A stretch of 64,000 bases of DNA from Naegleria gruberi (Eukaryota): assembly GCA_000004985.1 (NCBI GenBank), contig GG738879.1. One strand, given 5' to 3'. Position numbers and translations under genes: made by a program. This document shows positions 1 through 64,000 of this stretch, piece by piece; the first letter of the stretch is position 1, and every line of letters begins with the position of its first letter. The notes beneath the pieces are model-generated. The model worked only from the letters and a program-made list of their open reading frames with translations. It did not search any database and was not told where the DNA came from.

Positions 1-1326
1 ATATTCAAAGTCAGATTGATATTTCTTAATATTTCCACAATATAATACTTGGATAAATTTAACAAAGGCAAGAGTGTTTCTTGGATGGTGATCTCCTCTC
101 AGAATATAATATCCAGGTCCATTATCGTTATCTTCTTCGACGAGTCCTGTTTGTGGATTCCATTTCAAAACGTTGGCTGTGTGAAGGAATTTAGAGCCAG
201 TTCTTGCTCTAATGACAGGATAGTGAGCATGAATATCGAAATCTTCAACAGATAAACGTAGTTTCGACCCAGTTATATACAGATTAAATTCATTAGGATT
301 CCAATCTAGTAAATCTGGAAGGTCCAGAATTGCAAAATGAATATCACTTGTAAATCTGCCAAATTTTTCATTCATTCCAATAGTTGGAAACCATTTTGGA
401 TTTGCAGTAATAAGTAATTTTTCAAAATCGTCTTCAAGAGCATACTCTTCAGTGAGAGCGTTCAGAATTTCTCCAATATGATACAATATACTAGTGACAG
501 TTTCACTCACAACAGAGTCTACTTTATACCACTCTGTTTTCTGACCTTCATTCTTGAGGAACTTGTCAATATATTGTGAATAAAATTGAGAAATATTCCA
601 CAATGTTCCAAACATGCCAGATTGTTTCAAAATTTCTCTTCCTCTCGAATGATCTGTTATTTTGAAAAGTATAAAAGTTAGAGCCAAGAGTGAATTTTCA
701 ATAAATTTGCTACACTGAGCATTCAATGACTTGTCAATAATATGAGGAATAATAAACACTAAAGTACAACAAATGTCACAAGCATGAGTCAACCCTCCCA
801 ACTTGTATAACATTGCTCTAATATCATAAGTTGTAATTTGATTACTGATAGCAGAGAGAACATTCTGAATATCCTCAAATAACTGAGCATTTTGATGAAC
901 AATATTCACATCAACCTCCAACTCTGTTACAAAACTCTCCAATTCAAACAATTTACAAAGATTTCCATAATATTCTTGCAATAATTTACACTTCTTCTTC
1001 ATTCCCTCATCTGGATCAATATAGACCAATCTCAAATAGTAGGCCTCACCTAATTCCATCATTGAGCTATTAGAACAACCAACTGTCTCTAACAATTTTT
1101 GAGGAGACATTCTAGATAACACCTCAATCGGTTGATGACTCAAGGTAGAGGCACTCATATTATTGACATCAGCATTTGTACTATTATAGTTGGTAGAAGA
1201 ATTGTTACTATTACTAATAGTAGTGGTAGTGGATGATCCACCACCTGATCCTTTGCCACCTCCACCACTATTTCGGAGATGTTTTGGTAGGTGATATTGT
1301 CCTCCTCCTCCCTTCTTCTTTGTCAT
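1..1326 (-). CDS. Hypothetical protein, partial: the N-terminus is in the window (ATG at 1326) and the 3' end runs off the window edge. Gly/Ser/Thr/Asn-rich N-terminus, then a structured domain I do not recognise.
   Basis: Open frame on the minus strand from ATG at 1326 (acaaagATGaca) down to position 1 with no stop. I translated about 300 nt by hand and it reads as plausible protein (MTKKKGGGGQYHLPKHLRNSGGGGKGSGGGSSTTTT...SHQPIEVLSRMSPQKLLETV...). It is absent from the ORF track, probably because it has no stop inside the window. Confidence 0.5.
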   Translation of the reverse strand, partial: MTKKKGGGGQYHLPKHLRNSGGGGKGSGGGSSTTTTISNSNNSSTNYNSTNADVNNMSASTLSHQPIEVLSRMSPQKLLETVGCSNSSMMELGEAYYLRLVYIDPDEGMKKKCKLLQEYYGNLCKLFELESFVTELEVDVNIVHQNAQLFEDIQNVLSAISNQITTYDIRAMLYKLGGLTHACDICCTLVFIIPHIIDKSLNAQCSKFIENSLLALTFILFKITDHSRGREILKQSGMFGTLWNISQFYSQYIDKFLKNEGQKTEWYKVDSVVSETVTSILYHIGEILNALTEEYALEDDFEKLLITANPKWFPTIGMNEKFGRFTSDIHFAILDLPDLLDWNPNEFNLYITGSKLRLSVEDFDIHAHYPVIRARTGSKFLHTANVLKWNPQTGLVEEDNDNGPGYYILRGDHHPRNTLAFVKFIQVLYCGNIKKYQSDFEY

Positions 1327-1596
1327 GTTATTTAAAGTTTTGTTTGAATATTTAAATATAATTATTATAAATTAATATGAAATATTATCAATGTTCTCTT
1401 CTGATAGGGTGGGATGCAAATTGGTATGCTGCGTTTCTTTTTTATGATGTCAAGAGTTGGTTCATGTTCACAGGTTTCTTTTCAGCATTGAAGAAAGGTA
1501 AAGAGTGGAATTGAGCCATGATTTTTTCCCGCCAAAATTAAACTATTAAACATTTAAAAAAAATATTTGACAATTTATTGTGAATAATTAAAAATA

Positions 1597-2028
1597 ATGG
1601 GTTGTTGGGGAATTGGCATTGCTGCAAATGATGAATTTTGGGATGTTTTTTCCAATATACATAAAGAATTACACTGGAATCAATATGATGGAAGAGAAGA
1701 AACAATAATCACTCCGGAACACTTTAATTCCAAATATGAATTGATTGCGAATCGAATTCAGAGTGGATTTACCAAGAATTATGAAACTTGTTGGTTTCAA
1801 GTGGTGGCTTATTTGGTGATGGAAATTGGAGGAAAGATGAGTAGAGAAATGAGAGATAATTGCAAGTTGGCTTGTAGAATTGAGAATGATTATTTGGATC
1901 CAGGTGCTTGGTTGAGTGAAAAAGATTTGTCTGAGAGGAGACAAGCTCTGGAACAGTTTGCACTCAAAATTGATGATTATTATTGTTCGAAATCTCAGGG
2001 AAATAATTATTTGGAAAAGGATTATTAG
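1597..2028 (+). CDS. Small hypothetical protein of 143 aa with no recognisable domain.
   Basis: ATG in a good A-rich context (aaaaataATGggt). Clean 143-codon ORF with coding-like composition. It sits between two minus-strand genes, and its stop overlaps the stop of the convergent RGS gene by 4 bp. Confidence 0.45.
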   Translation: MGCWGIGIAANDEFWDVFSNIHKELHWNQYDGREETIITPEHFNSKYELIANRIQSGFTKNYETCWFQVVAYLVMEIGGKMSREMRDNCKLACRIENDYLDPGAWLSEKDLSERRQALEQFALKIDDYYCSKSQGNNYLEKDY

Positions 2029-6865: not shown

Positions 6866-7125
6866 CTTTGCAGCAAAGAGATGGAAAGGTTTGAGTTGGT
6901 TTTTTTTCAAAGATGGATTTTTCTCTTTTACGAAATTGTTTCATAAATGTAGTAGTAATTGGCGCCACTTTCAACAAGGCGAAAGAAGAATGACTACAAT
7001 CAGCCTTAAAATTACACTTCACGAATCCAATAGTCATGGTTATTAGAATAAATACTTTGCAACTCTTGATTATCATTAATGTTTCGATATCAGACTAGTT
7101 GCCTATTTTTAAGACATTAATGTGA

Positions 7126-8563: not shown

Positions 8564-8664
8564 AATTAAAAATACATATTAAACAAATCATTCAAGGTTT
8601 AAATCTTTGGAATTACTTATAAAGCATCCTGCTTAATTAATTTCAAACAAATAAAAAAAGAATT

Positions 8665-14192: not shown

Positions 14193-17100
14193 TTATTCCA
14201 AAGTACATCCAACCAAAAATTGTCTATAGTGGCTGTCTGATAAGATTCTGTGAATTTCATTGATTTCCTGGTTTTCAAAGAACGGTCTCAATTTTTCAAT
14301 ATCAAAATAACCAAGCGTATTAATTGCCAAAACTAATTTAGCAATAATAATGAAAACTGTAGGTTGGAAAGAAAAGTTACCAACCCAGAAAAGTCCTATT
14401 TGTTGCTTTCTTCTTTCTGACAAAATTTTGAGGACAAACAGTAATTGACCCTCTAATTTTTGTAATACTTGTTGCCTAAATTCTGAAGAAATGTCCAGTT
14501 TGTTCAAGTAATATGATCCAAGTTGTGAAATGGCTAATTCTTCTGTGAATACATTGTCCTCTTCCTTTTCGAACAACATAACTTCTTCATCTGTTGTTTT
14601 GAATGGCAAAACAACCTCAACAGAGTTGTTTTCTTCATTAATAGCCTCCTCTAGTTGAATACAAGATACCAAGTAATTGTGACATTCTGTTAATTTTCCA
14701 TAATGGTGACTAATAAAGGCAAAACTTCGCTCCAAAACATATTCTCTTTGGAGTTCTGCACACTTGGCTTGCTTTGAAGTTGTGCCCTTATGTTCAAATC
14801 CAAATATCAAAGGAGAAACAATTAAAGCAGCTCTACTTCTAATAATATCATCTTCATCCTGCAATAAGGTAATCAAGGCAGTCCAAACAGAAAATTGGTT
14901 TCCAGCACTCTTTAAATCATTGGCAGATATGGTTAAAATTCCTGAAGAAACAATAGAGTCCAAACAAGCAGCTCTAACATGACTTTGTCTAGCTGGATCA
15001 GAAGCATGGCAAACAATCTTGAGCCATTTCTTTACAAGTGGATTTTCTGGTTGAGATTCTATAGTGCCTGAAATGAATATTCCCAACAGTGCAATAACAA
15101 GTTGATGGAGAACAGTATTGGTCTCATTTACATACAGATAAACCAATCTAGTAGGAACAGCATCAAATACATTATCCAGATAAGAGGACATAACAGAAAG
15201 ATCCTTGGTTAATTGACCAGCTGGTGCCTTATTGTACAAATTAACAAGGGATGCGAGTCCAAATCTGGCACACTCAACATCAGTTTCTCTGAACAAGGCA
15301 TGTTCCAAAATAAGAGGTCTCAAGTTTTCAATCTTGGCATGGGCGTTCACACCAGAAAGAGCTTGAACAACATGTTCCTCCTTGTACAAGTATTTGAAGG
15401 TTGCTCGTCTTACATCCATAGCAGAAAAGTTCAACAAGTTTACAACTAAATCTTCATCTACATCTTTTCTGAATAAGAGATACAATTCTACAATGAAAGT
15501 TGAATTGTTGAAAAACATTTCTTGTTTGGCTGGTTGCCCATTAGTAGACGTAGATTCCAAAAATACAGAATTTACAGAATTATTCCATAATGTTTCCAAA
15601 GTTTCTTGTGGTATATTCTTGCACATTTGAAGTAAATTGTTGATAATTTCATAGAATAATGATCTAGTGGCAAAGCATCTATTTTGTATAGTTCCAATGA
15701 AAGAGTTTGCTAACTTGTTCAAACAATCAAGGGCGAATTGTTCTGAATTTTCCATTGCCTTGAAGCTTGTCGTTACAAATCTGTTGAGTTGGAAAAGAAC
15801 ACCATGAAGCTCATTTTGATGGATAGTCTCTTCAACAGTCTTTGGAAGGGCATTAATAGTATCAAGAATATATTCCTTTACCATTGAAGACGGAATAAGA
15901 GGTTCCAAAGCTCTAGCACCTATGGATCTAGCCATGTGATGGATCATAGCAGAGCACTTTTTCACAAATGGAATAAACTGAGATACAGAATTAGCCTCTG
16001 TCTCTGTACTTTCATCCAGTGAAGGTCTCAAACGAGAAAGGAGTAATAGCATTGGGTAGAGACTTGGGTGAAGAATTCTCTTGTGTTCTCTATTTTCATC
16101 AGTTACAGTATTTAATTGTTCCAAAAGGAAGGTTCTCAATCTAGGATATCTACTGAAATATTCAGTACCTGTCTTGATAGAGTCGTTATCACCCAATGAT
16201 CTGTGCAATAATGCTGTATACATCATGAGAGAAGAGTTCTTGATGGCCCAAATAGTTGATCCAAATCCTTTAAGTGAAATAATGAGACCATCCTCAACGA
16301 ATTGTTGAACATACGGACCCAACTGTGCATCATGGAACAGGAAACGAAGTACATTCAAGGCATTCACAACTTGACTTGTCTTGTAATTGGATTGATTGAG
16401 AGCTACATTGAGTAAATATTGCATAGTTTCAGGGAGTAATTTTCTTGGAAGGAAAGTTGGCTCAGATTTCATAATAGAAGCAAATGTCCAGGGCAATCCA
16501 GCCGAACGTCTCATCATACTGAATGTATCATCCTTTCCAATACCATCAAGTAGGTATCTTGTCCATTTTTCAGGAATGTTAACAAGTTCAGGAATACCAC
16601 AAGACATTAATCTTTTACACAAAATATTAAATCCTACAGCACTCTTTTCAATAGCTCCGTTATGTTTTGTTGTGAGAAGAATGTTAAGCAACATTTTACC
16701 CAATTTTTCGATTTGATCAAAAGTAATAATACTATCTTTTGAAAGTTTGTCATTTGAATGAGAATCAGGATACAATTCTACATGGTGAACAATAACAGAA
16801 ATGAGCATTGAAGAACTCTTGACTGCCAGCCAGCTGTTAACAGTGAGAGAGTGAGTATCTCCAGAGACTTCTTCATCCTCTCCAAAGAAAATGTGACCAC
16901 GACAGTCAACATTGTTCATTGCAACAGAATTATCTTCATTTTCATCCAAAAGAGGTGCACCTGCAATAATCTTTACAGAGAGCAGGCATGCCTTTTCTAA
17001 AATACCCAAAAATTCGGTCATCCATTCTCTCCATTCACTAATAGTGGTTCTCTCCTTGGTAAAATCTACATCAGAAATAACATAGATTAAAGTTTGTAAA

Positions 17101-20100
17101 ATACCAACAAGAGCACTGTCCTTGGTTATGTTGAAAATGTTTTGAGCACAATTTTCTGTTTTTTCCTTGAGTAAAGCAACCAATTTCTTGCAAAAACTCA
17201 ATTGTGGAGATACACTGCAACTAGTAACTGGTTCCTTATCAAGAAAAACTTCCCATCCTAATTCACAGACATACTTTTTGAAAATAATTCTATAAAGCAA
17301 AGCACCAGCATCTGATTCTCTGAGTCTTGGACTTTTGATAAGATCAAAAGCATTGTTTGCAATAACCTTTACCTTCTCAGGAGTTTCGAATCCAGTTAGA
17401 GGAGCCATGAAAGATGCCAACAAATCATAAATAACAACTCTAACCTTGTCCCAACAACTTCCCAAAGTATTAAGTAGGGTCAACACAGAATTAGAAGAAG
17501 TTAAATGAATTCTCTTCCAAGAAACAACTCTATTTGTGTCTGATGGATTAAACACATCGATAGAATTATTTAAAGAGAACGTGTCGAGTAAGCTCTTGTA
17601 GCAGTCTAAAGCAACAAGTAGTCTTTCGTGTGGACAACCAGGATATAAAGAATTGATTACCTCTGTTGCATAATCATATAAAAATTCCATTAAAATTCTA
17701 TATGAGTGTCTGTCCTTGTTGAGCTCTTCTCTCTTCTTTTGAGGCATATTTCCTTCTGGGGTGGATACGTCCAAAAGGTGGTTCAAAGTTTGGTTCTTTT
17801 GGTGGGAGGCAAAGATACGAACACAGATTTCATTCACTCTCTTAATAAAACGTTCGATGGCATCACCAAAGCCAAATCTGAAAGAGCTCTTACAACCACG
17901 CAAGTTGAGTCTTGCAAACTTGATTATAATTGCTAATTCTTGCTCTGTTGGCAAGGCAAGTTTCTTAGTAGAAACAGTAATTAATTCAAAGGCATCCAAT
18001 CTAATATCATGATCATTATGAATAAGCCCCTCTTCTATCAATTCCAAATCATTCTTGAAATCCAACTCATATAACGACAGAGATTTAGCTGTCTTTAAAG
18101 TAAACATTAGAGAGTGAAGAAGTGCAGAACGTTCTGTAGATGATTCAGTTCTTTCAATACCTGCCTTGAAGCATTTTACGAGGAAAGCTGTTCCCTCATT
18201 ATTAACCTTTAAAATCTTTGACATGAGATGGATAAAGATAGCAGATCTTTGCTTCTTATCACACATAGCCAAAAAGTCGGAAACCGGCTTGAGGCACATA
18301 ATCTCCCATTCAGCAATCTTTTCCTTATTCTTCTTGCAGTCTTTGAGCAAATCTGAGAGCATCTTTTCAAAGAACAAGCTTGCATTTCCGTTAACACTAC
18401 CATTCAAGTGACCCAGAGATGATAAAATGTTGGTGAAAATTTCTGGACACAACGAATAAATTTTAGATGCTGTAATTCTTGGAAGTAATGCAATTAATGA
18501 AATGTACTTTCCTTTTCTTGTCCAATCAGAATCCAGAATAGAATTAGTCATGGAAACCAAATCAATTTGAGATTTAACTTTATCCAAAGTGAGGAAATCT
18601 CTTAAATCCAAAAGATCCATAAAAAGTTGTCTCATCTTGGCAAAAATGTCATAAACTTGATTTTCAATATTACTGAAAACTATCTGAATACCTCCTTTGA
18701 TAAGTTTGGAAACTCTATTTTCAAAATTAAATCTCTCTATATCTTCCATCTCTGATGACTTCCTAGCTTTTACATGGTCATGTAAAAATAATAAACTATC
18801 ACTATAACTCAAAATTGAAAATAATTTTAGGTCAGAATCCTTAGATTGCATGCAATAGTAGTGTAATAATGGGAATAAACCATCAAATAAAATGTTAATA
18901 TTGTGCCCATCATGAGAAATAGGTGCATCTAATCTTTGAACTGTGATTGCATTAATAACTCCTGAAAATACTGCCATCTTGCTTACGTTATCACTCAAAT
19001 CTATCACTGATTTTAACTGAGAAGCAATATTAGATCCAGTTACAATATCCTTTGAAACTTGTTGTACATTTACACTGGATTCTAATTTTTTGAAATCATC
19101 AGACAAATAAGTGAATTCTATCAACCCATTCTTGATGAAATCTTTCACAAAAACATCAAAAACAAGTCCTAAGAGAACATTCTTTTCCGAGAATGAATGA
19201 TCCACAATTCGCATTACTATCAATGCTCCAATTCTCTTACAATCCCTTGGTGATGTTGTTGTGGCAAGTGTATTCAAACTAGAACAAACGAGAGAAAGTA
19301 AAGCCTCTGCAAGTACATGATTTCTATGGTTTGATGACTCCTCCCCAAGTAATTTAATCATCTCGGAGCATGTTCTTCTTTCCGAGAGTGAATTCAATGA
19401 TAAAGAGCTTGCACTTGTCTTGATGTAGGAAAGAGCTTGCACAACTGTAGAGGAATATCTGGTAATATATGAAAGTGCAAGTTTCATAGCTCCAAAAACT
19501 ACAGAAAACAACCAATCAACTGTTAAAATGTTATGTGATGTACTCTCTATAATTTTAGCAATCTTATAGAGAATAATAAAAGCAAAATCTACATTGATAC
19601 TATCAAAGTAAATGGATTCAATTTCTAGAATGTGTTCTAATTGACGACACTGATAGGCAATACTAACAAAATATTCATCTTCTGTAACGGAAACTTGTTC
19701 ATGTTCAAATTCTAAAATACCTCCACAAAATGCTATCATCTCTGTTCTATATACATGTTGAACAATTCTATTAATTTCCACATTCAATTCAATAAAGAGT
19801 TGTAAATTGTGTTCACCACCAACAAGAGTTGATAATTTATCATCTACTGATGATGATGAAACAATACGGAGATGATTCTTTAATTGTTGCAAACCCCATT
19901 GGATATGTCTATGTAAATGTTTAGCTTCATTGATGAAGAGAAGAGAAAGAATACATTTGATGAATAATTTAAATGTTTCTGATTGGTCGTAAATTAATTG
20001 TTTGTAGGTTTGCAATAATTCTGTGGAGAGTTGTGTTGGGAGAACACTTGCATTATTGGCTTGTTCTTGTTTAAATGATGAAGGTTGATCCACAATGATG

Positions 20101-35103: not shown

Positions 35104-35677
35104 CTAATTCAAATTCAACCAATTAAGCCAAATGATAAATTCCTGAAAACTAATAACACTATCAGAATTAGTATCCAAACTCTTCATTGCCTCCTCAACT
35201 TCCTTCATGGATGCATTCTTATTTTGTTCATATAATTCTCTATAGAATTTTTCAAATTCACTCAGAGAAATGACACGATTAGAGTCAACATCATATTTTC
35301 TGAAAATATCAGCTGCTTGAGTCAATAACTCAATTCTCTTTTCTAAAATTGATAATTCTGAAGTGGATGCAATTTTAATCCAATATTGTTCGAATTCTTC
35401 AAAGGAAACGTGGCCATCAGAATTTTTATCAAGATACATTTCAAGAGCTTGAATTTCTTCCTTGCAGAAATTGAAACCCAAATCATCCATAATCTTCTTC
35501 AAATCAGAAACTCCAAATACACCTCTTCCGCTCTGTTTCGAATAATATTTTGATCATTTGAAAATAAAAATTATATTGGAATGTTTAAAGAAATAAGAAT
35601 ATTTTACATACAGTATCATACTTTAGACACAAGCTTTTAATAACCTTTGGATCTGTGCAGTACACAACTGATGTCAT
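35104..35677 (-). CDS. EF-hand calcium-binding protein with 3 EF hands. Two exons: join(35677..35612, 35532..35104) with a 79-nt intron.
   Basis: EF-hand loops are DKNSDGHVSFEEF, DVDSNRVISLSEF and DTNSDSVISFQEF. The body frame is open upstream to an AACAG acceptor at 35533. An upstream ATG (aaaaaaATGaca, 35677) encodes MTSVVYCTDPKVIKSLCLKYDT. It ends at a canonical GTATGT donor (35611) in phase 0, in frame with the body. Confidence 0.6.
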
Positions 35678-43768: not shown

Positions 43769-46700
43769 TTACTTTTGTTTATGTTTGGACATGAAATGGT
43801 CAAAGCTTTGTCTCGACAATAGATCATGAACAGTGGTGGAGAGTCTAGATGAACGTGGAGAGGCTTCTCCTATTGTATGCTGTGGAGGAATATCAATGTT
43901 GATATGACCTTCTTGTTCTTTTGTTGTGTGTACGGAGGTTGTGGACTTTCTTCGGAAGGCACGATTCACAAAATCTGAAAATTTACTTCTTCTTCCACAG
44001 AGGAATAACTTATCTCCTTCCAAGAGGATGATGGATTGTCTTGGATGAGTATAAACATAATAGAAATCATTGTCAACTGACTCTAGAATGCCATTTACAA
44101 ATATTCTCTTGGGTCTGTAAAGTCCAATCAGAATCTTTTAGAGTGGTTTAGTGTACTTGATATAATTGAAACTTACTGTATTGGATATTTCACAAAGTTC
44201 TAGAAATACATCAATGGCTGCTCTACCAAAACAGTTTGGAGGACAATCTTCTTGAAATATAGAACTCTTGCTCATATTGCAGAGACCATCTAAGCTCATA
44301 TGCTCAATAATTTCATTCAACTTATCAGTGTAGAACGATTGAGCCAAAAGCTTAGGAATGAAACTAATTGGAAATATTCTACCACTTGAGTAAAGCTCAG
44401 ACAATAGACAGAACTGATCATACTCATCACTCTTGTCAGAAAGTGAATGTAATGGATCATCAAAGGCAACAGAGGCACTGCTAACATTACGGAATATTTT
44501 GAAAAGAGAGTGGTTCTCTCCATATTTCTTTGAAAAACATCCTCCTTGTTTTAGAAATTTGATATTCTTTTGGTTATTGAGCTCCATGATGAAGAATTTC
44601 TTGCTGTCTATATAGCTAATTGATTCTATGAGTTTGATAACTTCTGCATCCCTAAGGTATTCAGATGTGTCAATAAGATCGTCTGTGGCTTCATGAGAGT
44701 CACAATCATTTTCTGGTTTAGAATTGTGACCATGAGAGCCATATTGCCTGGATAGATAGACCACTGCTTCTGCATTTAACAAGCCACATCTGTGTAGGTC
44801 AAAAACGTCTGTTGCATTCCCTTTCAGAAAGAATACCTGATCAAAAAACTTGAGCCTGTCATATAGATAATCTACGTATGGATTGCCGTGAAGATTTGTA
44901 TGAGAGACCATAATAAGTATTGGAGTGAAATGTCTCTTTCTAATAGATCTTATTGTAGCTAAGATGACAAGAGGATATTTCAATTCTCCCACAAGTATGA
45001 TATGATTCTTTAACGAGCATGTACTAGAGAGAAGGAAAAAATCATTCTTTGGTCTAGCCTTGATGAGTAGATTGTAGTTTTCTAGAACACTTTGGTAAAA
45101 GTCATTAAGAAAGCGCTTGAAAGATACTCCAGAATCATCTAAATTCTTGTAAAAGAAAGTTGGAGGAGCTACTGACCTAAACAATCTCAATAGATATCCT
45201 TTGTTCATTTCAGTCTCTGAAACATGTGGAACATTTTTGATATCTATGATTTGCTTGTCTATACCTGACATGGTACTGACAAAAGATATGGGATTATCAA
45301 AGTCTGAACTATTGGTCAATATGGAAGGACTTTCAGCTTCTGGTGGAGTTTCAATATTTGAAGAAAAGGAAATATTGGATTGACTTGGACCTAGACTCTC
45401 AATGCATTTTTTGGAACCTCTTTTGGGTGGAAGTCCATGTCTTACTTTCAACACTTTTCTCCGAGTAGGAAGATATTTTGGTCTAGTTTCTACTTTTGGT
45501 TCATCCATTTCTTCGTTGATTGTCTTCTCATACGCGTTCTCCTCACTTACAAAGAATGTTTCAAAGGATTCCATGTCATTATTGTCATTTCGTGCTGGAG
45601 CTTCTTTCAAGTCTATTGGTTGTTGTGGAATATCTTGAGTATCTGCAGAGCTTGTTGAGTGTTTATCTGATTGGCTGTCGTCTTCTGCTTTAGCATTCTC
45701 AAAAAGGTAAACTAGGTTGGCATGAAACGTGCTCTGAGCAATCACGAATGCTTTGCATTTATCCACATGAATTATTTCATCAAAAGGATTCAATGATACA
45801 CTTTTTAGACTTTCATCATGATTATCCAAGTATTCCATGGCCAGTAAGGTGAGATCAAGATTCTCTCTGATGAAAACGACTGCCTTAATGAAGGTCATTC
45901 CTTCAAAAAATGGCGAGAATCTCACACAATATATTTCATTTCCTAGTCCGTCCAGATATTCAAATATCCACAGACTTTCAGCAGAAGTTACAGGATCTAA
46001 CTTCTTTTTAAGGAATGGAATCCAGGGCTTTTTCTTCTCTTGTTCCATAATCATCTTGTGGGTTTCAATGGCATTTCTAACATAGGTTGTCGTGACGAGA
46101 TTGATTAAGAGTGTACTAAATCCATGATATACAACACTCATACCCATAATCTTACTTGAAATAGTTTCTGTGCAAATAACTTGTTTGGCACCTGCTTTAT
46201 ACAAGTATGCTCTTGATTCAGGTAATGTCACTTGTGCATAAATATCCAGATCTGGATTAATATTTTTCAGACCAATAGTTGCCACCATTATTGACGTATC
46301 ATTATGTCTAGGATTAGAATGTTTAATACAATTGAGAAGGAACACAGAGTGAGCTTCATGAACTTTGATAATTCTACTCGTCTCATAATCCATCAAATCT
46401 CCATGGAAAACTAAAACCTTTTCTTGAAGGTATTGTCTCACTTTGATAACTTCCAAAATTGAATCACACAACTTCTTATTTCTGGAAACAACTTTGCAAT
46501 TGAAATTTTGGATGAGTATTGAACATGAAATAAGGTTGTAACTTACTCAAGGATTTTTTCGTATTCTTTCCATGCATTGAATGATAGAATTCTTTTAGAA
46601 AGTCCAATACATCTTGCTTGTGAAAGTATCCACAAACAATGACATGATTTTTCAAATTGGCATGTCGAGCTCTGAAAATTGCCTTTTCGCTTGTCGATAA

Positions 46701-47699
46701 TAACAAAGACAATTGATAGGGAATGAATGTAATTCCAACCAGAAAGCAGCCAATCGTCCAATATTTACTCGCAAAAGTAGTTGGAGAAATATCACCATAT
46801 CCAATGGTAGCCATGGTAATTACCATGAAATAGATTGAATCATCTTTACATAATATATTAAGGATGAAATACGTTTCAAAATACCTACGTAATGAAAGAA
46901 CATGTCCACCAAATAAGAATTCAATCATTTGAAAAGTTCCAGCAAACAAAACCATCAATGTAACAATTAATGCAATAAGACAAGCAATTTGTACTTGTAG
47001 AGTTGGTCCAAATCCAAAACTATTCTCCAAAACATAGTGTAGTATATTCCTCTTCCAAGTCAAGACAAAAACAATCCTCACCAATCGAATTAATCTGAAA
47101 ATTGAAATCATTACTGAAATGTTAAACATGTTCACATAGAGCATAATCTTCTGATCTCTATTCACCACCAACATTCTATCATTTTCCACACCATACGCAT
47201 GAATACAATAGATGATGTAAATACATAATGGAATCATTGGAACTACAGTTATAAAATCCAATATAGAGTTGGGATGAATCAAATAACGGAGTTTATGTTT
47301 GGTGAGGAGAAAGGAAACGAACCACAATGAAACAGTTATGGTACACAGTATCAAATCACAAATGAATATACTCTGCAACATGAATTGAATATGTTGATCC
47401 GAGAGTGAGAAGGAATTTTCAGGAGTTGGTCTTGATTGAGGATAAATTTGCGAATAGAAAACAAAATTTGTGTAAACGTCCGCAATGAAAATAACAAAAA
47501 AGAGAAAGGAAATTATCACCTGAAGAATTTCCATATCCAAAAAGTAACCATTATGTTTCATATAGTTTTTGATTTTGGATCGAAGACTGAGTTTTAGAGG
47601 TTTCGGCACGTTTGATGCATTGAAGAAGAATTCATTGTGATGATTGCCTTCTGTTGTTGGTGTTTTGCTTTGCTGTTGTTGAGTTGTTGGTGTAGTCAT
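43769..47699 (-). CDS. Slo/BK-type voltage- and Ca2+-activated K+ channel (about 1,277 aa). Three exons: join(47699..46547, 46491..44177, 44134..43769); introns of 55 nt (46492..46546) and 42 nt (44135..44176).
   Basis: Exon 1 carries S4-like arginines (RLIRLVRIVFVL), the K+ pore TMATIGYGDISPTT, and the RCK1 start NHVIVCGYF. Exon 2 carries Slo-like RCK gating-ring sequence. Exon 3 encodes the conserved Slo tail (ILIGLYRPKRIFVNGILESVDNDFYYVYTHPRQSIILLEGDKLFLCG; human Slo1 has CFGIYRLRD...[24 protein letters not shown]). Both introns have GTAAGT donors and AAG acceptors and keep the frame. The first ATG of exon 1 is at 47699 (ttaaaATGact). Confidence 0.8.
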
Positions 47700-48016
47700 T
47701 TTAATTCTTTTTATTAACAAATTCCTCAATAAGAAGGTAATCATTTCGATTGAAGAAGAAATAATTTTGCAATTTCGAAATTAGATTTGATTCTGAACTA
47801 AAAGGCTGATGATCTTTTTAACAAGATTCCCAAATGAATCATTCAAAAACTCTCCTAAAAACAATAAAATAGGTTGTATCAGTTTGAGAACTTTCGGATT
47901 ACATTTATTTCCAAATCACAAACAATCACAACATGATTCTCATTGAATGTCACACCATCGTAATCATTGGTAGCATGTTTCTCTCTAATTCACAAAGTAA
48001 CAACCTAAATTAAAAA

Positions 48017-55117: not shown

Positions 55118-56485
<1,368 letters not shown>

Positions 56486-57252: not shown

Positions 57253-57573
57253 TTTTTTTGATAATTATTTGAAATTCAAAATTATTAATTATTTCTTCCA
57301 ATTTAAACAATCAGTAAGCAAATATCGTCCTCTGTAATTGGTCTCCAACCATGTTCAATGAGATTAAAACTGACTGAGAAATTAATTGAAAATACTTGAG
57401 GGAAATAAAAGTTGTATTGCCAACTAACTGATTTGTTGTCAGTGTGTTTGCCAATCAATCATGAAAACTTTCTTGAATTCCATTTTGTGATATTTTATTA
57501 CAATATATAGCTTACAAATACGATAAACAGATTGGAATTATTGCTAAATTGCAATTAAATGTTTCTGAAATAT

Positions 57574-59386
57574 TTACAATTCCCAATCATCATCACTTTC
57601 CTCATCTTCACTGGAATATTCAATATTACCACGACGAAGTTCCATAATACCTGCAATCTTGGCTGCCAAATTGTTTTGATCACTTTCAGCCATATTCTTG
57701 AATTCTGGTAAATCTTCTTGCTTTACATTTCTCAATTTCTTATTTTTAATTTCAGAAAGCATGTCAACACCACCTGAGGCACCACTATCAGAATCAGTTG
57801 TTGGACTTGCAACAGATACTCTAGGCTTAACAGAGTGATCGACAACTGGTGGAGGAGGAACATTGGTTGGTGGAGGAGGTACAAAACCACCAACTCCAAT
57901 GGCACTTGAGCCAGAAGGAGCATTTGAGCTAGCTCCCTTGAAAGGAGGTGGTGGAGGGGTTGATCTAGTTCCTGGGGTTGGTGGAGGTTGTGGTCTTCCA
58001 CTTGGAACATCCAAAGAAGGAGGTGGGGGAGCATCTGATGTGACAGTGACAAGTGTCTTCATTAAAAATTTGGCAGTTTTCTTATCTTTCAATTCAGCTT
58101 CTGAAATGCCTGCCTTCTCAAATATGGTTTTTAGCTCTTGGGGTATTTCTGTAAATCCACTTTTTGGATCAAAACCAATGTGTGAAACGTGTTTAAACTT
58201 GTCAACCTTTGGTCCAGAAATTTTGATTTGTGACCGGTCAGGAATTTGGTCCTTATTCTTTGTTCCGAAAATCTTGGAGAATAAACCACCTCCACTACTG
58301 CTACTACCTCCACTACTGCTATTGCTAGGAGTGTGTTTCTTTTCAGGTTCCTTATGGGAAGAAGTAGTATGTACAGAGCTACTGGCAGCAATTGAAGTAT
58401 TGACAGCTGTTGGCTTGTTAGCAACTGGTGGAGGAGTGGATGGAGGAGGATTAGTCTTCTTCACTGGAGTAGGTGGGGCAGTACTGGAACCAGTACCAGT
58501 TGGTGAAGAAGAAGAAGAATCAGAACTGTCACTTCTCATATTAACAGAAGGTTTAGTTGAAGGCAAACTTGGAGTTGAACCACCATTGATAGAACCAGTT
58601 GCTTTCAAACGAATGAGTTGACAAACTTGCTTGGCAAATTGATCAGCATCAAATCTTTCAGCAAATAACAATCCAACAAAACCTTCATCAGATTCGAATG
58701 CATGAAAATTGGAAGAAAGTGTTTGATAGTCGAAACCTTCATAACATTCTTGTTCCATAGTAACTGATTTACTCTTCAAATCTACCAACCGAATCATTAC
58801 TACTGATTGCTTTTCAACCAATGTAACTGTCAAAATTCCATAAGAATTGGCATATGACCATTGATTACCATTGTTGGCTTTGTAGAGACGAACTGGTGCA
58901 GAATACTTGATTTCGAAAATGTTTGGTAAAGACAAGACACCTGCAGCGAGTTGTACAGCACGTTTACTTCAAGTTTGACAAGATTTGGGGAAATTAAAAT
59001 TGTTTTTTTTAAAATTTAAAGTATTTCATCTTTCAATTTTGATTTGGCAAGTAAACTCAACTCCATTTGAAAAGAATCTGTAACGATAATATTTTATTCA
59101 ACAAAATGCTAATTTCTCGATGGAATTAAGGTAGTTTTGAAATCTGACTTCAAATTATGAATCCTCGCATTGACATACCCCTTGGGGTGGCAGCATTCTC
59201 AAAAATATGTAGAAATGAGTAAGAACGAGTTGTTAGGTGTTGTTCTATTGAAATGCTTATTTTGGATTTGACAGCAGAAGAACAACAAAATTTTTTCTAA
59301 ATAATTTATTTTCTTTCAAAAAACGCGTCAAATTTGAAGTAAACGTGCTGTAATTCGTCAGGGAGAATGTTGATTCTTGTTGTCAT
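57574..59386 (-). CDS. WASP-family actin nucleation-promoting factor with WH1/EVH1, CRIB, poly-Pro, WH2 and acidic-Trp modules. The N-terminal coding region is interrupted by a TA-flanked inverted-repeat element. Restored CDS = join(59386..59351, 58953..57574), 471 aa.
   Basis: WH1: ..IKYSAPVRLYKANNGNQWSY...VVMIRLVDLK... CRIB: ISGPKVDKFKHVSHIGFD. Pro-rich region with many PPPP runs. WH2-like GGVDMLSEIKNKKLRNVK. Acidic C-terminus DEESDDDWEL. Upstream of the element an ATG (aaaaaaaaATGaca, 59386) encodes MTTRINILPDEL. That matches the region preceding WH1 in N-WASP (LLTPQEN) and is in frame only if 58954..59350 is removed. Confidence 0.7.
58954..59352. mobile_element. MITE-like non-autonomous DNA element, 395 bp plus flanking TA/TA. 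26-bp terminal inverted repeats (TACAGCACGTTTACTTCAAGTTTGAC, one mismatch). AT-rich non-coding interior. Possibly a Tc1/mariner-type insertion in the WASP coding region.
   Basis: Plus-strand 58954..58979 is the reverse complement of 59327..59352 (25 of 26 positions). Both ends are bounded by TA. The interior has no ORF. Precise removal of the element plus one TA restores the WASP reading frame. Confidence 0.6.
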
Positions 59387-59585: not shown

Positions 59586-59657
59586 TCCCGTGTGGTCCAA
59601 TGGCTAAGATACCTGGCTCTCACCCAGGAGATCCGGGTTCAATTCCCGGCACGGGAG
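59586..59657 (+). tRNA. tRNA-Glu, anticodon CUC.
   Basis: TCCCGTG-TG-GTCC-AATGGCTA-AGAT-A-CCTGG-CTCTCAC-CCAGG-AGAT-CCGGG-TTCAATT-CCCGG-CACGGGA-G. The loop has U33, CUC, A37. The T arm is CCGGG/CCCGG. A T5 terminator follows directly. The D stem has 3 bp plus one mismatch. Confidence 0.8.
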
Positions 59658-59701: not shown

Positions 59702-61022
59702 TTAGATTTCAGTTCTTGTCTTATTAACACTACTCTCCTCACTTGAACTAAATTCTGTCATTTCAATCATTGAAACACTAATGCTAATCTCACACACATC
59801 ATTTGCTTGATGAAGCACCTCTCCAATGGTTGATGATTTTTGTGAAATTTCACTTCCACTTGCGCTGTCAGGTTGTTGAACAGTTTCTGATTTTGCAATT
59901 TCTTCTTTCGAATTCTCCTTATGAAGCAAGTATTTGAGGAGAAGTCTATTTCTCAAAGAAGACACCAAACTTGCACACATGAAACTCAAACCAAGAACTA
60001 AATAAATACCAAAGAGTACCAAAATTACTGCAAACCAAGGTTTCACATAAAAATTGAGAACTGTATAAGGAAATTCGGAAACTAGACGATTTCTCATACA
60101 TGTGAGCATCCATACAAAGTAAGCACTTGGGAAACACATGATTGTGAACACGTGCCACTTTCTATATTGAAAATTAGACAATAAAAAGTCAATCAAGCTC
60201 AATATTCCAGTCACTCCATGATAAGCCACAGAACTATCACAAATTCATTAACATTTTTCAATGATCATCAAGAAACAACTTACATGTAATCTACTCCATC
60301 TTCCTCCTCTCCCAACCTTGCAAACCAGTAACCAATCGAAACAACCAAAGAAGCCACCAAATTCAACTCTCCAACAATCCATATAATACCAGAGAGTGCT
60401 CTCAATACAATCACCAACCATTTGTTTCTTCTCTTCAACACACTAATAGATTCTGAAGTGAAATTCACAGAGAAATCCCTAAACACAATCAAGTAAAACA
60501 TTCCAAACACGGTTTGAGAGCTGAAATATGTTGTAAATACCATTACCATATGATGGGTAAAATAAGTTGAGGATTTGAGAAGTACATTGTCCGTCTCATA
60601 CTTTCTCATGAACGGATACGAAATGATTGTTCCAATAATCCAACAACAGACTGTAAATCTGAAAATGTACAGAGCAATTGTGATGTACTTGTTGTAGCCA
60701 AATGATTCAAAGACGAATTGTGAAGAGTTTCTCAAGCTGTGTGAATGTTGTGTGTTAAATATTTTAAAATTCAATTCTAATCAACTTACCCATCAAGAAG
60801 TAAATCTTGCTTTCTGATTTCATTAGAGTTAGTGGATTGGTTGTCTGGTTCCTTCTGATCACGGTTCTTTCTCCTAGTGTAAAAGAAACCTTTCACTAGA
60901 AAGAAACCCACCGAAACCATAAAGATGAAAGCAAATGTCATACTGCTCTGTACTAAGAGTAGAGAACTAATTAAATTAGCACCTCTTGTTTCAGAAGATG
61001 AAGGAATTTTATAAGGGTCCAT
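59702..61022 (-). CDS. Multi-pass membrane protein (about 405 aa, at least 7 helices). Three exons: join(61022..60790, 60736..60284, 60233..59702); introns of 53 nt (60737..60789) and 50 nt (60234..60283).
   Basis: Three consecutive track ORFs (60786..61022, 60280..60774, 59702..60229) are linked by two GTAAGT introns, both phase 2, with CACAG and GATAG acceptors. The spliced frame is continuous (...DLLLDG-LRNSSQF... and ...GVDY-I-SVAYHGVTG...). ATG at 61022. Confidence 0.6.
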
Positions 61023-61669
61023 TATAGAATTGTTTGAATTGTTGTTTTGTTTTTTATGAAATTATCAATTCTTTGGTGTAAACTGTTGGGTTTTATACGA
61101 AACCCAACAACATGTGTTTGTCCATTAGATTCCACAGAAAAAGCAAGGTTTCTGTTCGTACCTGTTTAAAACCATTCAAAAGGAAACCGAATTTGTGTGA
61201 ATTTTGTAAAGTGACTGGTAGTTTTGTTAACAAAACATTACAAAACAGTTCGGTTTCCATAAATAGGTTCATTCTATATTCGCACTGAACCTTTGTTTGC
61301 ATAATCTTCGTAAGTACTTATTCTGTAAATAGCTAGCGAACATTCTGGAATCACTTATTTTGTAAAAAAATTCATTTCAAGGGCGGCAATTTACAAAAAT
61401 CCCTTTCGGCTGTTTAGTCTACCAATTACAGAACTTTCTCTATTAAAAATTATTTATTTCATTGTTATGGTAAGCAGAGCTCAATCACTTGAATATTTTC
61501 GACACATTGTGCATGTGACACTTCATGACGTTTCTATTCGAAAAACGTCCAACTTGCAAACTTACTCAAACAAGCAGCAAGAAAATATTCGTGCCGAAAC
61601 TGAGATTAGGAAACAAAAGAATTGCATATTTTGACTTTACTCAATTGGATGAGTAAGAATTAAGAAACA

Positions 61670-61951: not shown

Positions 61952-62429
61952 GATGAATCATTTAAGTGGTTGGAGAGAGAAGTACCTGGTGAGAATCAGA
62001 GTCAGCAGATGTTGATGCTTGTATTATTCTGTGCTTTTTTATAAGTGATAGATGTTGATGTTACAAGTATGTGGGAGGCCTTTGCATTGTTGGCGTTTTC
62101 TACTTGTAGCATATTCATATAAAAATGTGTGTTCTGTATTTGGAGAGAGACATCTACTCAGAATCTCAATACAGTTTCTATCGCTTCTATTTAGTGAGGA
62201 GTCAGTATCTCTCTAAAATTCTCGCTTCATGCAATCATGCATGTCTCTAAGGTTTGGCAAGAATGCTTTTATTTACAAGTGTATTGTACCACTAAGGTAG
62301 TCCATTGCATTTATTTCTTAACAAATCAAGCATCCAGAAGAAGATCCCTCAGAAATGTCCTTTAATGTTTGGTCACTAGAATGGAATGTATTCAGTCAAT
62401 ATATATATGTGTGTTACTACTTTAAAAAC

Positions 62430-63636
62430 TTACATAACAGTTGGGTCTAGTGCTTCTCCATACTCTAGAATGATTCCATCTCTACTCTTGAGAAGGGATG
62501 GAGGTAGTTCAGAGAGTTTCTTGTCTGTCGGCAATTTAACTCCATCAAAATTGAATAAATTCAATCGCTTACTGAGATCCAATTCTGTCGAGTTGTTATT
62601 CTTAACTTTTCCTTGTTCAGCAATTTTATCCAAAACTTTTCCAACTGACCAAGTCTTACTGAAGAACATGTGAATTGGCTGTATTTGATTATTGATTGGG
62701 AAATAAACATCCAAAAAGTATCTATCCTGAGTTGCAATTGAGGATTGACCAACTGGGAATAGAGGTTTGTTCTGGAATTGATTAGATAATAATTTTCCAG
62801 CATCCTTTCTCTGACCTTTCCATTTGTTTGCAGTTATAGGAACAGAGGATCCACTCTTGATATTAAAAGGTCCAATACTTGATGAGCCGCCTGATCTTGA
62901 TTTTTGTTTTTTCAACGAGTCACAATTATGATCGAAATCCAATCTATGTCTATATTAAGAAAGCAAATTAATTCTCCACAAAATCTAATTCAATCACACA
63001 CTTACTCTACACAAAATGATTTGTTACATCCTTTACATTTGATAATTGACTTTTGACCACATCCTCCCAAAGCACACATTTCAGCACTACTAAGAGAAGA
63101 AGTTGGCTGTTTTGATGCATTTTGATTCATTGCTGGACACTTTCCACTGCTAATGTGTCTTTCAACAACATCATTAGGATTCTCTCTTTCACTGGCACGA
63201 AATGGAAGAACCTGATTGCATAGAGGACAAAATGGTGCAACAACTCCTTGTTCTTGCAGATAGGAACATTTGTGAGCATCAAAACTTCTATGCTAAATAT
63301 CAAGATAGTGTTATTATACATTGAATTCCGTAATTATATTTAAAAATTCCGAATTATTAATATACAATTATTTGTTGTATAATATTTCCGATTAATATAC
63401 ATATAATACACAATTACAAATCATCAATTAATAATATTAATATACAACAAAATCCATCATAATACAAAACAACATTCATCATCCAATAAAATCATCATCC
63501 ACCAATACCTTCTACTACTACTACATACATTCAAACAAAATGTCTTTCCACAATGAGTACATTTGAACGGAAGAAAATCCTTCTCATGGCATCCATCAAA
63601 ACAACAATGTGCTCCAAGATCGTAGAATTCAGTCAT
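62430..63636 (-). CDS. AN1-type zinc-finger protein (ZFAND1/Cuz1-like) with two AN1 fingers and a C-terminal ubiquitin-like domain. Three exons: join(63636..63529, 63292..63006, 62949..62430); introns of 236 nt (63293..63528) and 56 nt (62950..63005).
   Basis: Both AN1 fingers are split by introns at the same position and are restored exactly by splicing. Finger 1: C(TH)CGKTFCLN | HRSFDAHKC, with a GTATGT donor and TTTAG acceptor. Finger 2: CKGCNKSFCVE | HRLDFDHNC, with a GTAAGT donor and TATAG acceptor. Each gives C-x2-C-x4-C-x2-H-x5-H-x-C. The C-terminal roughly 80 aa are ubiquitin-like (..KVLDKIAEQGKV...LNLFNFDGVKL..). Confidence 0.75.
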
Positions 63637-63761
63637 TTTTTTTTCTTAAATGTATTTTAATTTGTATTGACATTTAAAATTTTGTAATCTTTTTTTCATT
63701 ACCTATTTTCAAACAAAAATTACAAGAAATCAATATTGATGATATGATGATTCTCTTTTAA

Positions 63762-64000
63762 TTAAATCATATTTACAGTAAAAACAAAGAAAATTACCAA
63801 AATTACAAGTAAAGGAATGGAAAGAGAACTAGTTCCATTATTGTGTGGAGTTGTGCTGTGGATAGAGTTTGGATTTGGATTTGGAGGATTTGATTTTAAA
63901 GTACCAACAATGGTAATGTATTTGGGATAAAAGTCGTTTTCTCCAATTTCAGGAGTGCAAGCAAGTTTTTGCCAACCAGGGAAGACGGCTGAGCCATATT
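63762..64000 (-). CDS. C-terminal fragment of a probable GPI-anchored or surface protein; partial, the 5' end is beyond the window.
   Basis: The minus-strand frame is open from the window edge to a stop at 63762..63764. It ends ...NPPNPNPNSIHSTTPHNNGTSSLSIPLLVILVIFFVFTVNMI, a Ser/Thr-rich stretch followed by a terminal hydrophobic tail typical of a GPI-attachment signal. Confidence 0.35.
   Translation of the reverse strand, partial: YGSAVFPGWQKLACTPEIGENDFYPKYITIVGTLKSNPPNPNPNSIHSTTPHNNGTSSLSIPLLVILVIFFVFTVNMI

What the first reader, a model, noticed from the sequence alone, without database searches (positions are those of the whole stretch)
1..64000. Conflicting lineage signals: budding-yeast-like codon bias and compactness, but intron architecture and gene content that budding yeasts lack
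Highly expressed alpha-tubulin uses almost exclusively TTG, AGA, GGT, CCA, AAG, TTC and TAC. Gene density is about one per 1.8 kb. That is the Saccharomycotina pattern. Against it, about a third of the genes carry one or two introns at any position, with GTAAGT donors and no TACTAAC branch site. The window also encodes a CRIB-containing WASP (fungal Las17/Wsp1 lack the CRIB), a copine, and a Slo/BK channel. These are families typical of amoebozoans, heteroloboseans and animals, and are at best rare in Dikarya. Dictyostelid, Entamoeba and anaerobic-fungus codon preferences (TTA, AAA, CGT) do not fit. Ciliate nuclear codes are excluded, because multi-kb ORFs have no in-frame TAA or TAG. Either the source is a lineage not well represented in my memory, or this window is unusually informative for placing it.
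Basis: inference. Interest (0 to 1): 0.5.

Follow-up and report, generated by a model that had tools for sequence, protein, structure and literature searches.

The report
Naegleria gruberi nuclear genome segment
The window is an ordinary piece of the published nuclear genome of the amoeboflagellate Naegleria gruberi, so the mixed "yeast-like" and "amoeba-like" signals are that organism's known features, not a puzzle.

Summary
The source is settled. Nine proteins encoded in the window, two of them only after I removed a short intron, are residue-for-residue identical to GenBank proteins of Naegleria gruberi. Eight of these sit on one 384,281-bp scaffold. N. gruberi belongs to Heterolobosea, within Discoba.

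- Alpha-tubulin has an extreme codon bias that resembles budding yeast, although the TAC claim is wrong (8 TAC against 10 TAT).
- About 8-9 of roughly 30 genes carry one or two very short introns (42-79 nt) at any position.
- Donors are GTAAGT in 8 of 10 introns, and none contains TACTAAC.
- A WH1+CRIB WASP, a copine and a Slo/BK channel are all present.

The "conflict" is only apparent. The yeast-like bias is confined to one strongly expressed gene. The other 20 ORFs have weak, AT-driven codon usage. GC content, exons per gene and WASP gene content match published N. gruberi figures. So the finding is correct as description but already known.

One thing seen in passing is more interesting. 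The CRIB-WASP coding sequence is interrupted after codon 12 by a 395-nt element. It has 24-nt terminal inverted repeats and a TA target-site duplication, like a Tc1/mariner-type MITE. It is absent from two other N. gruberi WASP models and from related amoebae.

The parts
1..64000 (.). Segment of a 384,281-bp nuclear scaffold of Naegleria gruberi NEG-M; GC 34.8%
   Evidence: Nine exact protein matches; base counts
55124..56485 (+). Intronless flagellar alpha-tubulin. Identical to EFC42452.1 / TBA1_NAEGR, ends in Gln, extreme codon bias
   Evidence: PMC2115128 abstract
57574..59386 (-). WASP gene (WH1, CRIB/PBD, poly-Pro, WH2-like motif, acidic DDDWEL tail). Start codon at 59386; coding sequence interrupted by the element below
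58956..59350 (-). 395-nt MITE-like element. Its 24-nt terminal inverted repeats are CAGCACGTTTACTTCAA[A/G]TTTGAC, flanked by TA at 59351-59352 and at 58954-58955
   Evidence: Removing it with one TA restores MTTRINILPDELQLAAGV, as in P0025 and P0026
52871..54727 (-). Copine (two C2 domains plus Copine domain) with an in-frame 42-nt GTAAGT...AAG intron at 53473-53514
   Evidence: The copine part of model P0026 reads DKIYGAYGYGARID, i.e. with this intron removed
43772..47744 (-). Slo/BK-type K+ channel of three exons, with introns at 46492-46546 (55 nt) and 44135-44176 (42 nt), both GTAAGT
   Evidence: This model is not identical to any deposited protein
32407..34218 (-). Membrane protein gene with a 42-nt GTAAGT...TAG intron at 33885-33926. 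The spliced product is identical to EFC42526.1
48017..49097 (+). Gene with a 43-nt GTAGGT...AAG intron at 48308-48350. The spliced product is identical to EFC42450.1
4011..5257 (-). Ankyrin-repeat gene with a 47-nt GTAAGT...TAG intron at 4587-4633
   Evidence: The model restores an ankyrin repeat but is not identical to a deposited protein
35104..35677 (-). EF-hand protein gene with a 79-nt GTATGT...CAG intron at 35533-35611
59702..61061 (-). Multi-pass membrane protein gene with introns at 60737-60789 (53 nt) and 60234-60283 (50 nt), both GTAAGT
   Evidence: The exact model is not in the collection
62430..63292 (-). ZFAND1-like gene (AN1 zinc finger plus ubiquitin-like domain) with a 56-nt GTAAGT intron at 62950-63005. 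Its 5' end is unresolved
14193..20327 (-). THADA/Trm732 homologue, a 2044-codon ORF
20427..26171 (-). TPR/ankyrin/MYND protein, identical to EFC42523.1
27382..28644 (-). PTPA (phosphotyrosyl phosphatase activator)
28753..30570 (+). PIG-S, identical to EFC42447.1
7790..8563 (+). Yju2 splicing factor, identical to EFC42445.1. It is bracketed by an inverted pair of tRNA-Arg(TCG) genes at 7126-7197(+) and 8665-8736(-)
59586..59657 (+). tRNA-Glu(CTC)

Best explanation
The window is part of a nuclear scaffold of Naegleria gruberi strain NEG-M (Discoba, Heterolobosea).

Its features are the normal ones of that genome:
- About 35% GC and compact gene spacing.
- Roughly a third of genes carry one or two very short U2-type introns, with a strong GTAAGT donor and only a loose yTnAy-like branch region.
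- A broad gene repertoire that Dikarya have trimmed: WASP with a CRIB motif, copine, and a Slo-type channel.

The budding-yeast look of alpha-tubulin is best read as convergent translational selection. This gene is transcribed massively during the amoeba-to-flagellate switch and uses a near-minimal codon set. That set happens to coincide with the yeast optimal set at 14 of 18 amino acids. The other 20 ORFs examined simply follow AT mutational bias.

Shown: identity of the source, the gene families, the intron anatomy, and the restriction of the bias to tubulin. Inferred: that the bias is translational selection matched to the tRNA pool, and that its resemblance to yeast is convergence.
For: - Exact identity to nine N. 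gruberi proteins, eight of them on one 384,281-bp contig: EFC42452.1, 42447.1, 42523.1, 42451.1; 42526.1, 42445.1, 42449.1; 42450.1, 42531.1. Two match only after I removed introns that I had predicted from the sequence.
- Lineage.
- GC is 34.8%, against 33-35% published (PMC8296547 Table 2; PMC6125883 Table 1).
- Published 1.7 exons per gene fits 10 introns in about 30 genes.
- The tubulin is intronless and ends in Gln, as described for the Naegleria flagellar alpha-tubulin family.
- N. gruberi is listed with four WASP and two WAVE genes.
- Codon data: tubulin Nc 26.9 and 'yeast CAI' 0.73, against Nc 37-46 (ten ORFs) and CAI 0.11-0.23 (20 ORFs). The preferred codons mix G-, A- and T-endings (TTG and AAG, but GAA, CAA, AGA, CCA and GGT), which a simple GC shift cannot produce (tubulin GC3 is 0.36).
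- Translational selection on highly expressed genes is reported for six amoebae, among them Naegleria clarki (PMC11702301).
Against: - I could not align the window's DNA to the N. gruberi assembly, because no tool here holds eukaryotic genomes. The gene-position index does not hold this record either.
- Several of my gene models are not identical to any deposited protein: ANK, BK, copine, the membrane-protein gene at 59702-61061, and the unspliced ORFs of THADA and PTPA. So the deposited annotation differs from mine at those loci.
- The yeast comparison uses Sharp and Li relative-adaptiveness values that I recalled from memory.
- The codon argument rests on one highly expressed gene, and the tRNA gene pool was not examined.
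Confidence: 0.97

Rival explanations
1. The window comes from a different member of the Naegleria gruberi species complex or another vahlkampfiid (N. clarki, Willaertia, an environmental relative), not from the sequenced NEG-M strain.
For: Alpha-tubulin protein is identical across several loci and in environmental contigs. The closest deposited WASP proteins are only 94% and 97% identical to the window's copy.
Against: Fast-evolving, low-complexity proteins are identical over their full length to NEG-M entries. Examples are the 1914-aa TPR/MYND protein, the 696-aa Pro/Gly-rich protein and the FHA protein. The N. lovaniensis and Willaertia WASP orthologues are only 43-50% identical. The 94-97% WASP hits sit on other NEG-M scaffolds, so they are a paralogue and a probable alternative haplotype.
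Confidence: 0.02
2. The source is a budding yeast or other fungus, and the CRIB, copine and BK calls are mistaken.
For: The tubulin codon set coincides with yeast optimal codons at 14 of 18 amino acids, and gene spacing is compact.
Against: - All three domain calls pass Pfam gathering thresholds, and the channel's best PDB relatives are Slo1 and Slo2.
- Every exact match is to Naegleria.
- Introns are 42-79 nt, sit at any position and lack TACTAAC.
Confidence: 0.001
3. The yeast-like codon set of alpha-tubulin reflects something other than convergent translational selection, such as recent transfer or gene conversion from a foreign source, or a local compositional domain.
For: The bias is confined to one gene. 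That gene belongs to a family homogenised over just the coding region plus about 60 nt of flank: L001 matches at 98.6% over 1466 nt.
Against: - The protein is the Naegleria-specific alpha-tubulin with the unusual C-terminal Gln, and the close copies differ only at synonymous third positions.
- GC over 4-kb windows is flat at 33-38%.
- The preferred codons are not uniformly GC- or AT-ending.
Confidence: 0.03

Closest known systems
Naegleria gruberi NEG-M reference genome (Fritz-Laylin et al. 2010; RefSeq GCF_000004985.1)
   Same: Nine encoded proteins are identical. GC content, exon number per gene, the intronless flagellar alpha-tubulin and the multiple WASP genes all match published descriptions.
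   Different: Nothing found that sets the window apart. My gene models differ from the deposited ones at several loci, which is an annotation matter.
Saccharomycotina genomes
   Same: AT-rich and compact. The highly expressed gene prefers TTG, AGA, GGT, CCA, AAG, TTC, GAA, CAA, GCT and TGT.
   Different: - About 30% of genes have introns at any position, rather than a few 5'-biased ones, and no intron has a TACTAAC box.
- TAT >= TAC, and GAT > GAC.
- WASP with a CRIB motif, a copine and a Slo channel are present.
- There are no sequence matches.
Animal and Dictyostelium WASP / N-WASP
   Same: WH1, CRIB(PBD), poly-proline, a WH2-like motif and an acidic tail ending DDDWEL. Fish WASP-like and N-WASP proteins are distant hits.
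   Different: Pfam's WH2 model did not score. This copy's coding sequence is broken by a 395-nt insertion.
Stowaway-type MITEs of the Tc1/mariner superfamily
   Same: Short (395 nt), non-coding and AT-rich. Terminal inverted repeats of 24 nt begin with CAG. TA target-site duplication. An inferred empty site exists in related gene copies.
   Different: No second copy could be found. The window holds none, and two metagenome scans were empty. The N. gruberi genome itself could not be searched, so family status is unproven.

Membership tests
Naegleria gruberi nuclear genome | Encoded proteins identical to deposited N. gruberi proteins that are neighbours on one scaffold | tested here: met
   Nine exact matches, eight of them on the 384,281-bp contig. 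Accession numbers run in the same order as window coordinates.
Naegleria gruberi nuclear genome | GC about 33-35%, about 1.7 exons per gene, short introns | tested here: met
   GC 34.8%. Ten introns of 42-79 nt in about 30 genes. The published mean intron length of 203 bp is longer than the introns seen here.
Naegleria gruberi nuclear genome | Intronless flagellar alpha-tubulin, two residues longer than usual and ending in Gln | tested here: met
   453 aa, ending ...GEDGGDQ, in a single ORF.
Naegleria gruberi nuclear genome | Nucleotide-level identity of the whole window to the assembly | not testable with these tools
   No eukaryotic genome collection is available, and searches found no record.
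Saccharomycotina | Introns rare, 5'-biased, with a TACTAAC branch box | tested here: not met
Saccharomycotina | Best protein matches fall within budding yeasts | tested here: not met
WASP family nucleation-promoting factor | N-terminal WH1 domain and CRIB/GTPase-binding motif | tested here: met
   PF00568 at 56.5 bits and PF00786 at 47.7 bits, both above their cut-offs.
WASP family nucleation-promoting factor | C-terminal WH2, central and acidic (VCA) region | tested here: inconclusive
   The motif DMLSEIKNKKLRNVK and the tail EDEESDDDWEL are conserved in all orthologues, but no Pfam WH2 hit was reported.
WASP family nucleation-promoting factor | Uninterrupted coding sequence | tested here: not met
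   The 395-nt insertion follows codon 12. Read-through stops after 26 codons.
Copine | Two N-terminal C2 domains followed by the copine (vWA-like) domain | tested here: met
   PF00168 in two stretches and PF07002 at 153.9 bits.
Slo/BK potassium channel | K+ pore with GYGD filter, followed by tandem RCK domains including the BK_channel_a region | tested here: met
   TIGYGD in the sequence. PF07885, PF03493 and PF22614 hits. Best PDB relatives are Slo1 and Slo2.
Slo/BK potassium channel | Calcium bowl and large-conductance, Ca2+-activated gating | not tested
   No residue-level or functional analysis was done.
Tc1/mariner-type (Stowaway-like) MITE | Terminal inverted repeats and a TA target-site duplication | tested here: met
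   23 of 24 TIR positions match. TA lies on both sides. Chance expectation for the TIR in the window is 0.
Tc1/mariner-type (Stowaway-like) MITE | An empty site exists in related sequences | tested here: met
   P0025 and P0026 encode ...PDELQLAAGV.... The orthologues in L003 and L004 are single uninterrupted ORFs, and all orthologues align without a gap at that point. This was inferred from proteins, not from DNA of the other N. gruberi copies.
Tc1/mariner-type (Stowaway-like) MITE | Multiple dispersed copies in the genome | tested here: inconclusive
   No other copy in the window and none in metagenome contigs. The N. gruberi genome was not searchable.

The most novel reading that the evidence does not exclude
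The 395-nt TA-flanked inverted-repeat element in the WASP gene may be a recently mobile, so far undescribed Tc1/mariner-type MITE of N. gruberi. It would be present in one haplotype or copy only, and would knock out or N-terminally truncate that CRIB-WASP gene. A more radical version is not excluded: the element could be removed from the transcript despite lacking GT-AG ends, making it a nascent transposon-derived intron.
Probability: 0.3. Interest if true: 0.3.

Novelty: already known. Interest (0 to 1): 0.1.

Why it matters
For the scan, it shows that this window needs no new lineage. A tool-less reader can be misled by the codon bias of a single highly expressed gene, and exact protein look-ups resolve provenance at once.

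Biologically it adds little to the 2010 genome paper and later Naegleria work. Heteroloboseans keep a wide ancestral eukaryotic toolkit for amoeboid motility, Ca2+ signalling and membrane binding that Dikarya lost. Optimal-codon sets can converge between very distant AT-rich eukaryotes.

The one item possibly worth a specialist's time is the transposon-like insertion in a WASP gene. It bears on transposon activity and heterozygosity in a strain widely used for actin-motility work.

Tried and rejected
- The look-up of encoding contigs for two window proteins that are in the collection found no gene record. I therefore could not obtain the official gene coordinates or the scaffold DNA.
- Exact look-ups failed for my models of ANK (two acceptor variants), BK (two start variants), copine (intron removed), the membrane protein at 59702-61061, EMC7 (98-nt intron variant), and WASP with the element removed. 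They also failed for the unspliced ORFs of PTPA, THADA, 8885-11035, 12512-14116, 26350-27270, 30572-31270, 40552-41211 and 52067-52726. The deposited models must differ, or those ORFs are unannotated.
- I could not decide whether the three ORFs at 8885-14116(+) are one gene. Accession numbering leaves room for only one plus-strand gene there. The candidate junctions have weak donors (GTGTGT, GTAAAT).
- The EMC7 5' end needs either an intron with a GTACAC donor or a frameshift. This is unresolved.
- I looked for a canonical GT-AG pair that would join WASP exon 1 (MTTRINILPDELQ) to LAAGV, and none exists (reasoned from the sequence). That led to the transposon reading.
- Two metagenome scans for the element's termini found nothing.
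- The gene upstream of tubulin in environmental contig L001 is unrelated to the window's FHA gene. The 97-nt repeat at 51639/54822 is therefore not explained by a shared tubulin-locus layout.
- Literature searches for Naegleria optimal codons and Naegleria MITEs returned nothing specific. The 2010 genome paper is not held.
Full report
**What the window is**

The window has 34.8% GC, flat along its length, and is packed with ORFs on both strands. I looked up full-length translations by exact sequence. Four intronless ORFs are identical to Naegleria gruberi proteins:
- alpha-tubulin (EFC42452.1 / TBA1_NAEGR)
- PIG-S (EFC42447.1)
- a 1914-aa TPR/ankyrin/MYND protein (EFC42523.1)
- an FHA protein (EFC42451.1)

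Five more followed:
- Yju2 (EFC42445.1)
- a 696-aa Pro/Gly-rich protein (EFC42449.1)
- the 206-aa product of 56632-57252 (EFC42531.1)
- EFC42526.1, which matches only after I removed the 42-nt intron at 33885-33926
- EFC42450.1, which matches only after I removed the 43-nt intron at 48308-48350

Eight of the nine are recorded on one contig of 384,281 bp, and their accession numbers rise with window coordinate. Several are fast-evolving, low-complexity proteins. Identity over their full length therefore points to the sequenced strain NEG-M itself. NCBI taxonomy places N. gruberi in Discoba, Heterolobosea. I could not align DNA to the assembly, because no tool holds eukaryotic genomes and the gene-position index lacks this record.

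*Codon bias.* Alpha-tubulin uses TTG 83%, AGA 95%, GGT 100%, CCA 84%, AAG 95% and TTC 94%, plus GAA, CAA and TGT at 100%. TAC is not preferred (8 TAC, 10 TAT), so that item is wrong. I compared against the Sharp and Li yeast adaptiveness values, which I recalled from memory. The commonest tubulin codon is a yeast-optimal codon at 14 of 18 amino acids, and the 'yeast CAI' is 0.73. Twenty other ORFs score 0.11-0.23. Pooled, those ORFs show TTA 28% / TTG 27%, AAA 55%, GGA 46%, TTT 62% and AAT 75%. The effective number of codons is 26.9 for tubulin and 37-46 for ten other ORFs.

So the 'Saccharomycotina pattern' belongs to one gene, not to the genome. The preferred set mixes G-, A- and T-ending codons while tubulin GC3 is only 0.36. 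That argues for selection on particular codons, not a compositional shift. This tubulin family is switched on massively during flagellate differentiation and is undetectable in amoebae (PMC2115128). Translational selection on highly expressed genes has been reported for six amoebae, among them Naegleria clarki (PMC11702301). I read the resemblance to yeast as convergence. This is an inference.

*Gene content.* Pfam confirms each call above its curated threshold:
- WH1 + PBD(CRIB) in 57574-58935(-)
- two C2 domains + Copine in 52871-54727(-)
- Ion_trans_2, BK_channel_a and Slo-like RCK in 44138-47744(-)
- PTPA, Yju2, THADA/Trm732 and PIG-S

My three-exon channel model has Slo1/BK and Slo2 channels as its best PDB relatives. 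Further genes include an RGS+SAM protein, EMC7, ankyrin proteins, an EF-hand protein, an FHA protein and a ZFAND1-like protein. N. gruberi is already listed with four WASP and two WAVE genes. Dikarya keep WASP but lack SCAR (PMC5461030).

*Introns.* I located ten introns in eight genes:

| Gene | Intron coordinates | Length (nt) |
|---|---|---|
| Ankyrin | 4587-4633 | 47 |
| EFC42526.1 (membrane protein) | 33885-33926 | 42 |
| EF-hand | 35533-35611 | 79 |
| BK channel | 46492-46546 | 55 |
| BK channel | 44135-44176 | 42 |
| EFC42450.1 | 48308-48350 | 43 |
| Copine (in frame) | 53473-53514 | 42 |
| Membrane protein | 60737-60789 | 53 |
| Membrane protein | 60234-60283 | 50 |
| ZFAND1-like | 62950-63005 | 56 |

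- Two introns are validated by exact identity of the spliced product to deposited proteins.
- The copine intron is supported by a deposited N. gruberi model that reads ...DKIYGAYGYGARID... (P0026).
- Donors are GTAAGT x8, GTAGGT x1 and GTATGT x1. Acceptors are TAG, CAG or AAG.
- The only branch-like signal is a loose TTAAC/CTAAT/CTAAA motif 10-25 nt from the acceptor.
- None of the window's five TACTAAC sites, which is the chance number, lies in an intron.
- Introns lie at 13% to 91% of the coding sequence.
- GTAAGT overall is not enriched: 21 sites against 24.6 expected.
- With EMC7 as a probable ninth intron-containing gene, 8-9 of about 30 genes are interrupted. This agrees with 'about a third' and with the published 1.7 exons per gene (PMC8296547 Table 2).

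*Gene density.* My ORF-based count is 28-33 genes, or one per 1.9-2.3 kb. UniProt accessions D2VKY0 to D2VKZ7 plus tubulin imply about 19 annotated genes between 7790 and 57252. That is roughly one per 2.6 kb, the genome average computed from 41.0 Mb and 15,708 genes. This rests on accession order and is an inference.

*Genetic code.* ORFs of 2044 and 1914 codons contain no in-frame TAA, TAG or TGA, and genes end mostly in TAA. The standard code applies.

**Interpretation**

There is no conflict of lineage signals. The window shows what has been published for N. gruberi: 41 Mb, 33-35% GC and short introns in a minority of genes. That species is described as having extensive cytoskeletal, membrane-trafficking, signalling and metabolic machinery (PMC8296547). 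The finding is a correct description of a known genome.

**Seen in passing: a transposon-like insertion in the WASP gene**

The deposited N. gruberi WASP proteins P0025 (94% identical, on a 396,166-bp scaffold) and P0026 (97%, on an 11,476-bp scaffold) begin MTTRINILPDELQLAAGVLSL.... In the window, MTTRINILPDEL is encoded at 59386-59351, and QLAAGV... resumes at 58953. No GT-AG pair can join the two.

The intervening 395 nt (59350-58956, minus strand) start and end with 24-nt inverted repeats, CAGCACGTTTACTTCAA[A/G]TTTGAC, matching at 23 of 24 positions. They are flanked by TA on each side. The repeat occurs nowhere else in the window, and the chance expectation is zero. Deleting the element plus one TA restores GAA TTA CAA CTC, which encodes ELQL. 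This reproduces the N-terminus of the other copies.

Orthologues in N. lovaniensis, Willaertia and two environmental relatives align without a gap at this point. The two environmental genes are single uninterrupted ORFs. This is the anatomy of a Tc1/mariner-type (Stowaway-like) MITE inserted at a TA in coding sequence.

As assembled, translation from the start codon stops after 26 codons. This WASP copy is therefore probably null or N-terminally truncated, unless the element is removed from the RNA. The 11,476-bp scaffold also carries close copies of the FHA and copine genes. It is probably the alternative haplotype of window 50-59 kb, and heterozygosity of N. gruberi is documented (PMC9928731). 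I could not show other copies of the element. Two metagenome scans were empty, and the Naegleria genomes are not searchable here.

**Verdict**

The provenance is Naegleria gruberi, so novelty is 'already known' and interest is low. The MITE-like insertion is the only lead that might merit a follow-up.

Noticed in passing
window 58954-59386 (minus strand): The CRIB-WASP coding sequence is interrupted after codon 12 by a 395-nt element with 24-nt terminal inverted repeats and a TA duplication (MITE-like). Removing it restores the N-terminus seen in two other N. gruberi WASP models and in orthologues. No GT-AG pair can splice it out in frame.
   Followed up: yes
P0026 and P0020 (N. gruberi scaffold of 11,476 bp) versus window 50265-59386: A small NEG-M scaffold carries 90-97% identical copies of the FHA, copine and WASP genes, so it is probably the alternative haplotype. 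Its deposited model P0026 is a chimera of the WASP N-terminal two thirds fused to the copine C-terminal half.
   Followed up: partly
window 55057-56520; L001:2603-4062; L002:112-1546: Environmental contigs encode the identical alpha-tubulin protein. In L001 all 10 coding differences, and in L002 48 of 50, are at third codon positions. DNA similarity ends about 60 nt outside the coding region, and L001's neighbouring genes differ. This fits the dispersed, homogenised tubulin family described in 1988.
   Followed up: partly
window 7105-7207 and 8655-8757: Two tRNA-Arg(TCG) genes with about 15 nt of flank on each side form a 103-nt inverted repeat (83%) that brackets the Yju2 gene.
   Followed up: no
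window 51639-51735 and 54822-54918: A 97-nt direct repeat (86%) copies the 3' end of the FHA gene to a site just upstream of alpha-tubulin. It brackets the 52067-52726 gene and the copine gene, which may be a trace of a segmental insertion. A second 41-nt repeat (49219 and 50304) copies part of the FHA gene's 5' end.
   Followed up: no
window 53473-53514 (minus strand): The copine intron is exactly 42 nt, in frame and free of stop codons, so the unspliced ORF looks intact with a 14-residue insert. Such introns are invisible to ORF scanning.
   Followed up: yes
window 31526-31700 (plus strand): The EMC7 gene's signal-peptide exon (ATG at 31526) is in a different frame from the main ORF. The join needs an intron with an unusual GTACAC donor, or there is a frameshift in an A-rich, CAC-repeat stretch.
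   Followed up: partly
window 8885-14116 (plus strand): Three consecutive long ORFs of low-complexity protein lie 36-125 nt apart. GenBank numbering leaves room for only one plus-strand gene here (EFC42446). They may therefore be one roughly 1700-aa gene with two introns that have weak donors.
   Followed up: partly
window 41365-43455 (plus strand): A 696-aa protein (EFC42449.1) with a likely signal peptide and long arrays of QPIPQP and GGGVVYGG repeats, plus an exact 27-residue tandem duplication. It has no Pfam match and may be a wall or surface protein.
   Followed up: no
window 62428-62433 (minus strand): The stop codon of the ZFAND1-like ORF overlaps a GTAAGT (ATG TAA GT). Splicing there to the acceptor about 60 nt downstream would add a 19-residue tail ending CLIC, a CaaX-like motif.
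   Followed up: no
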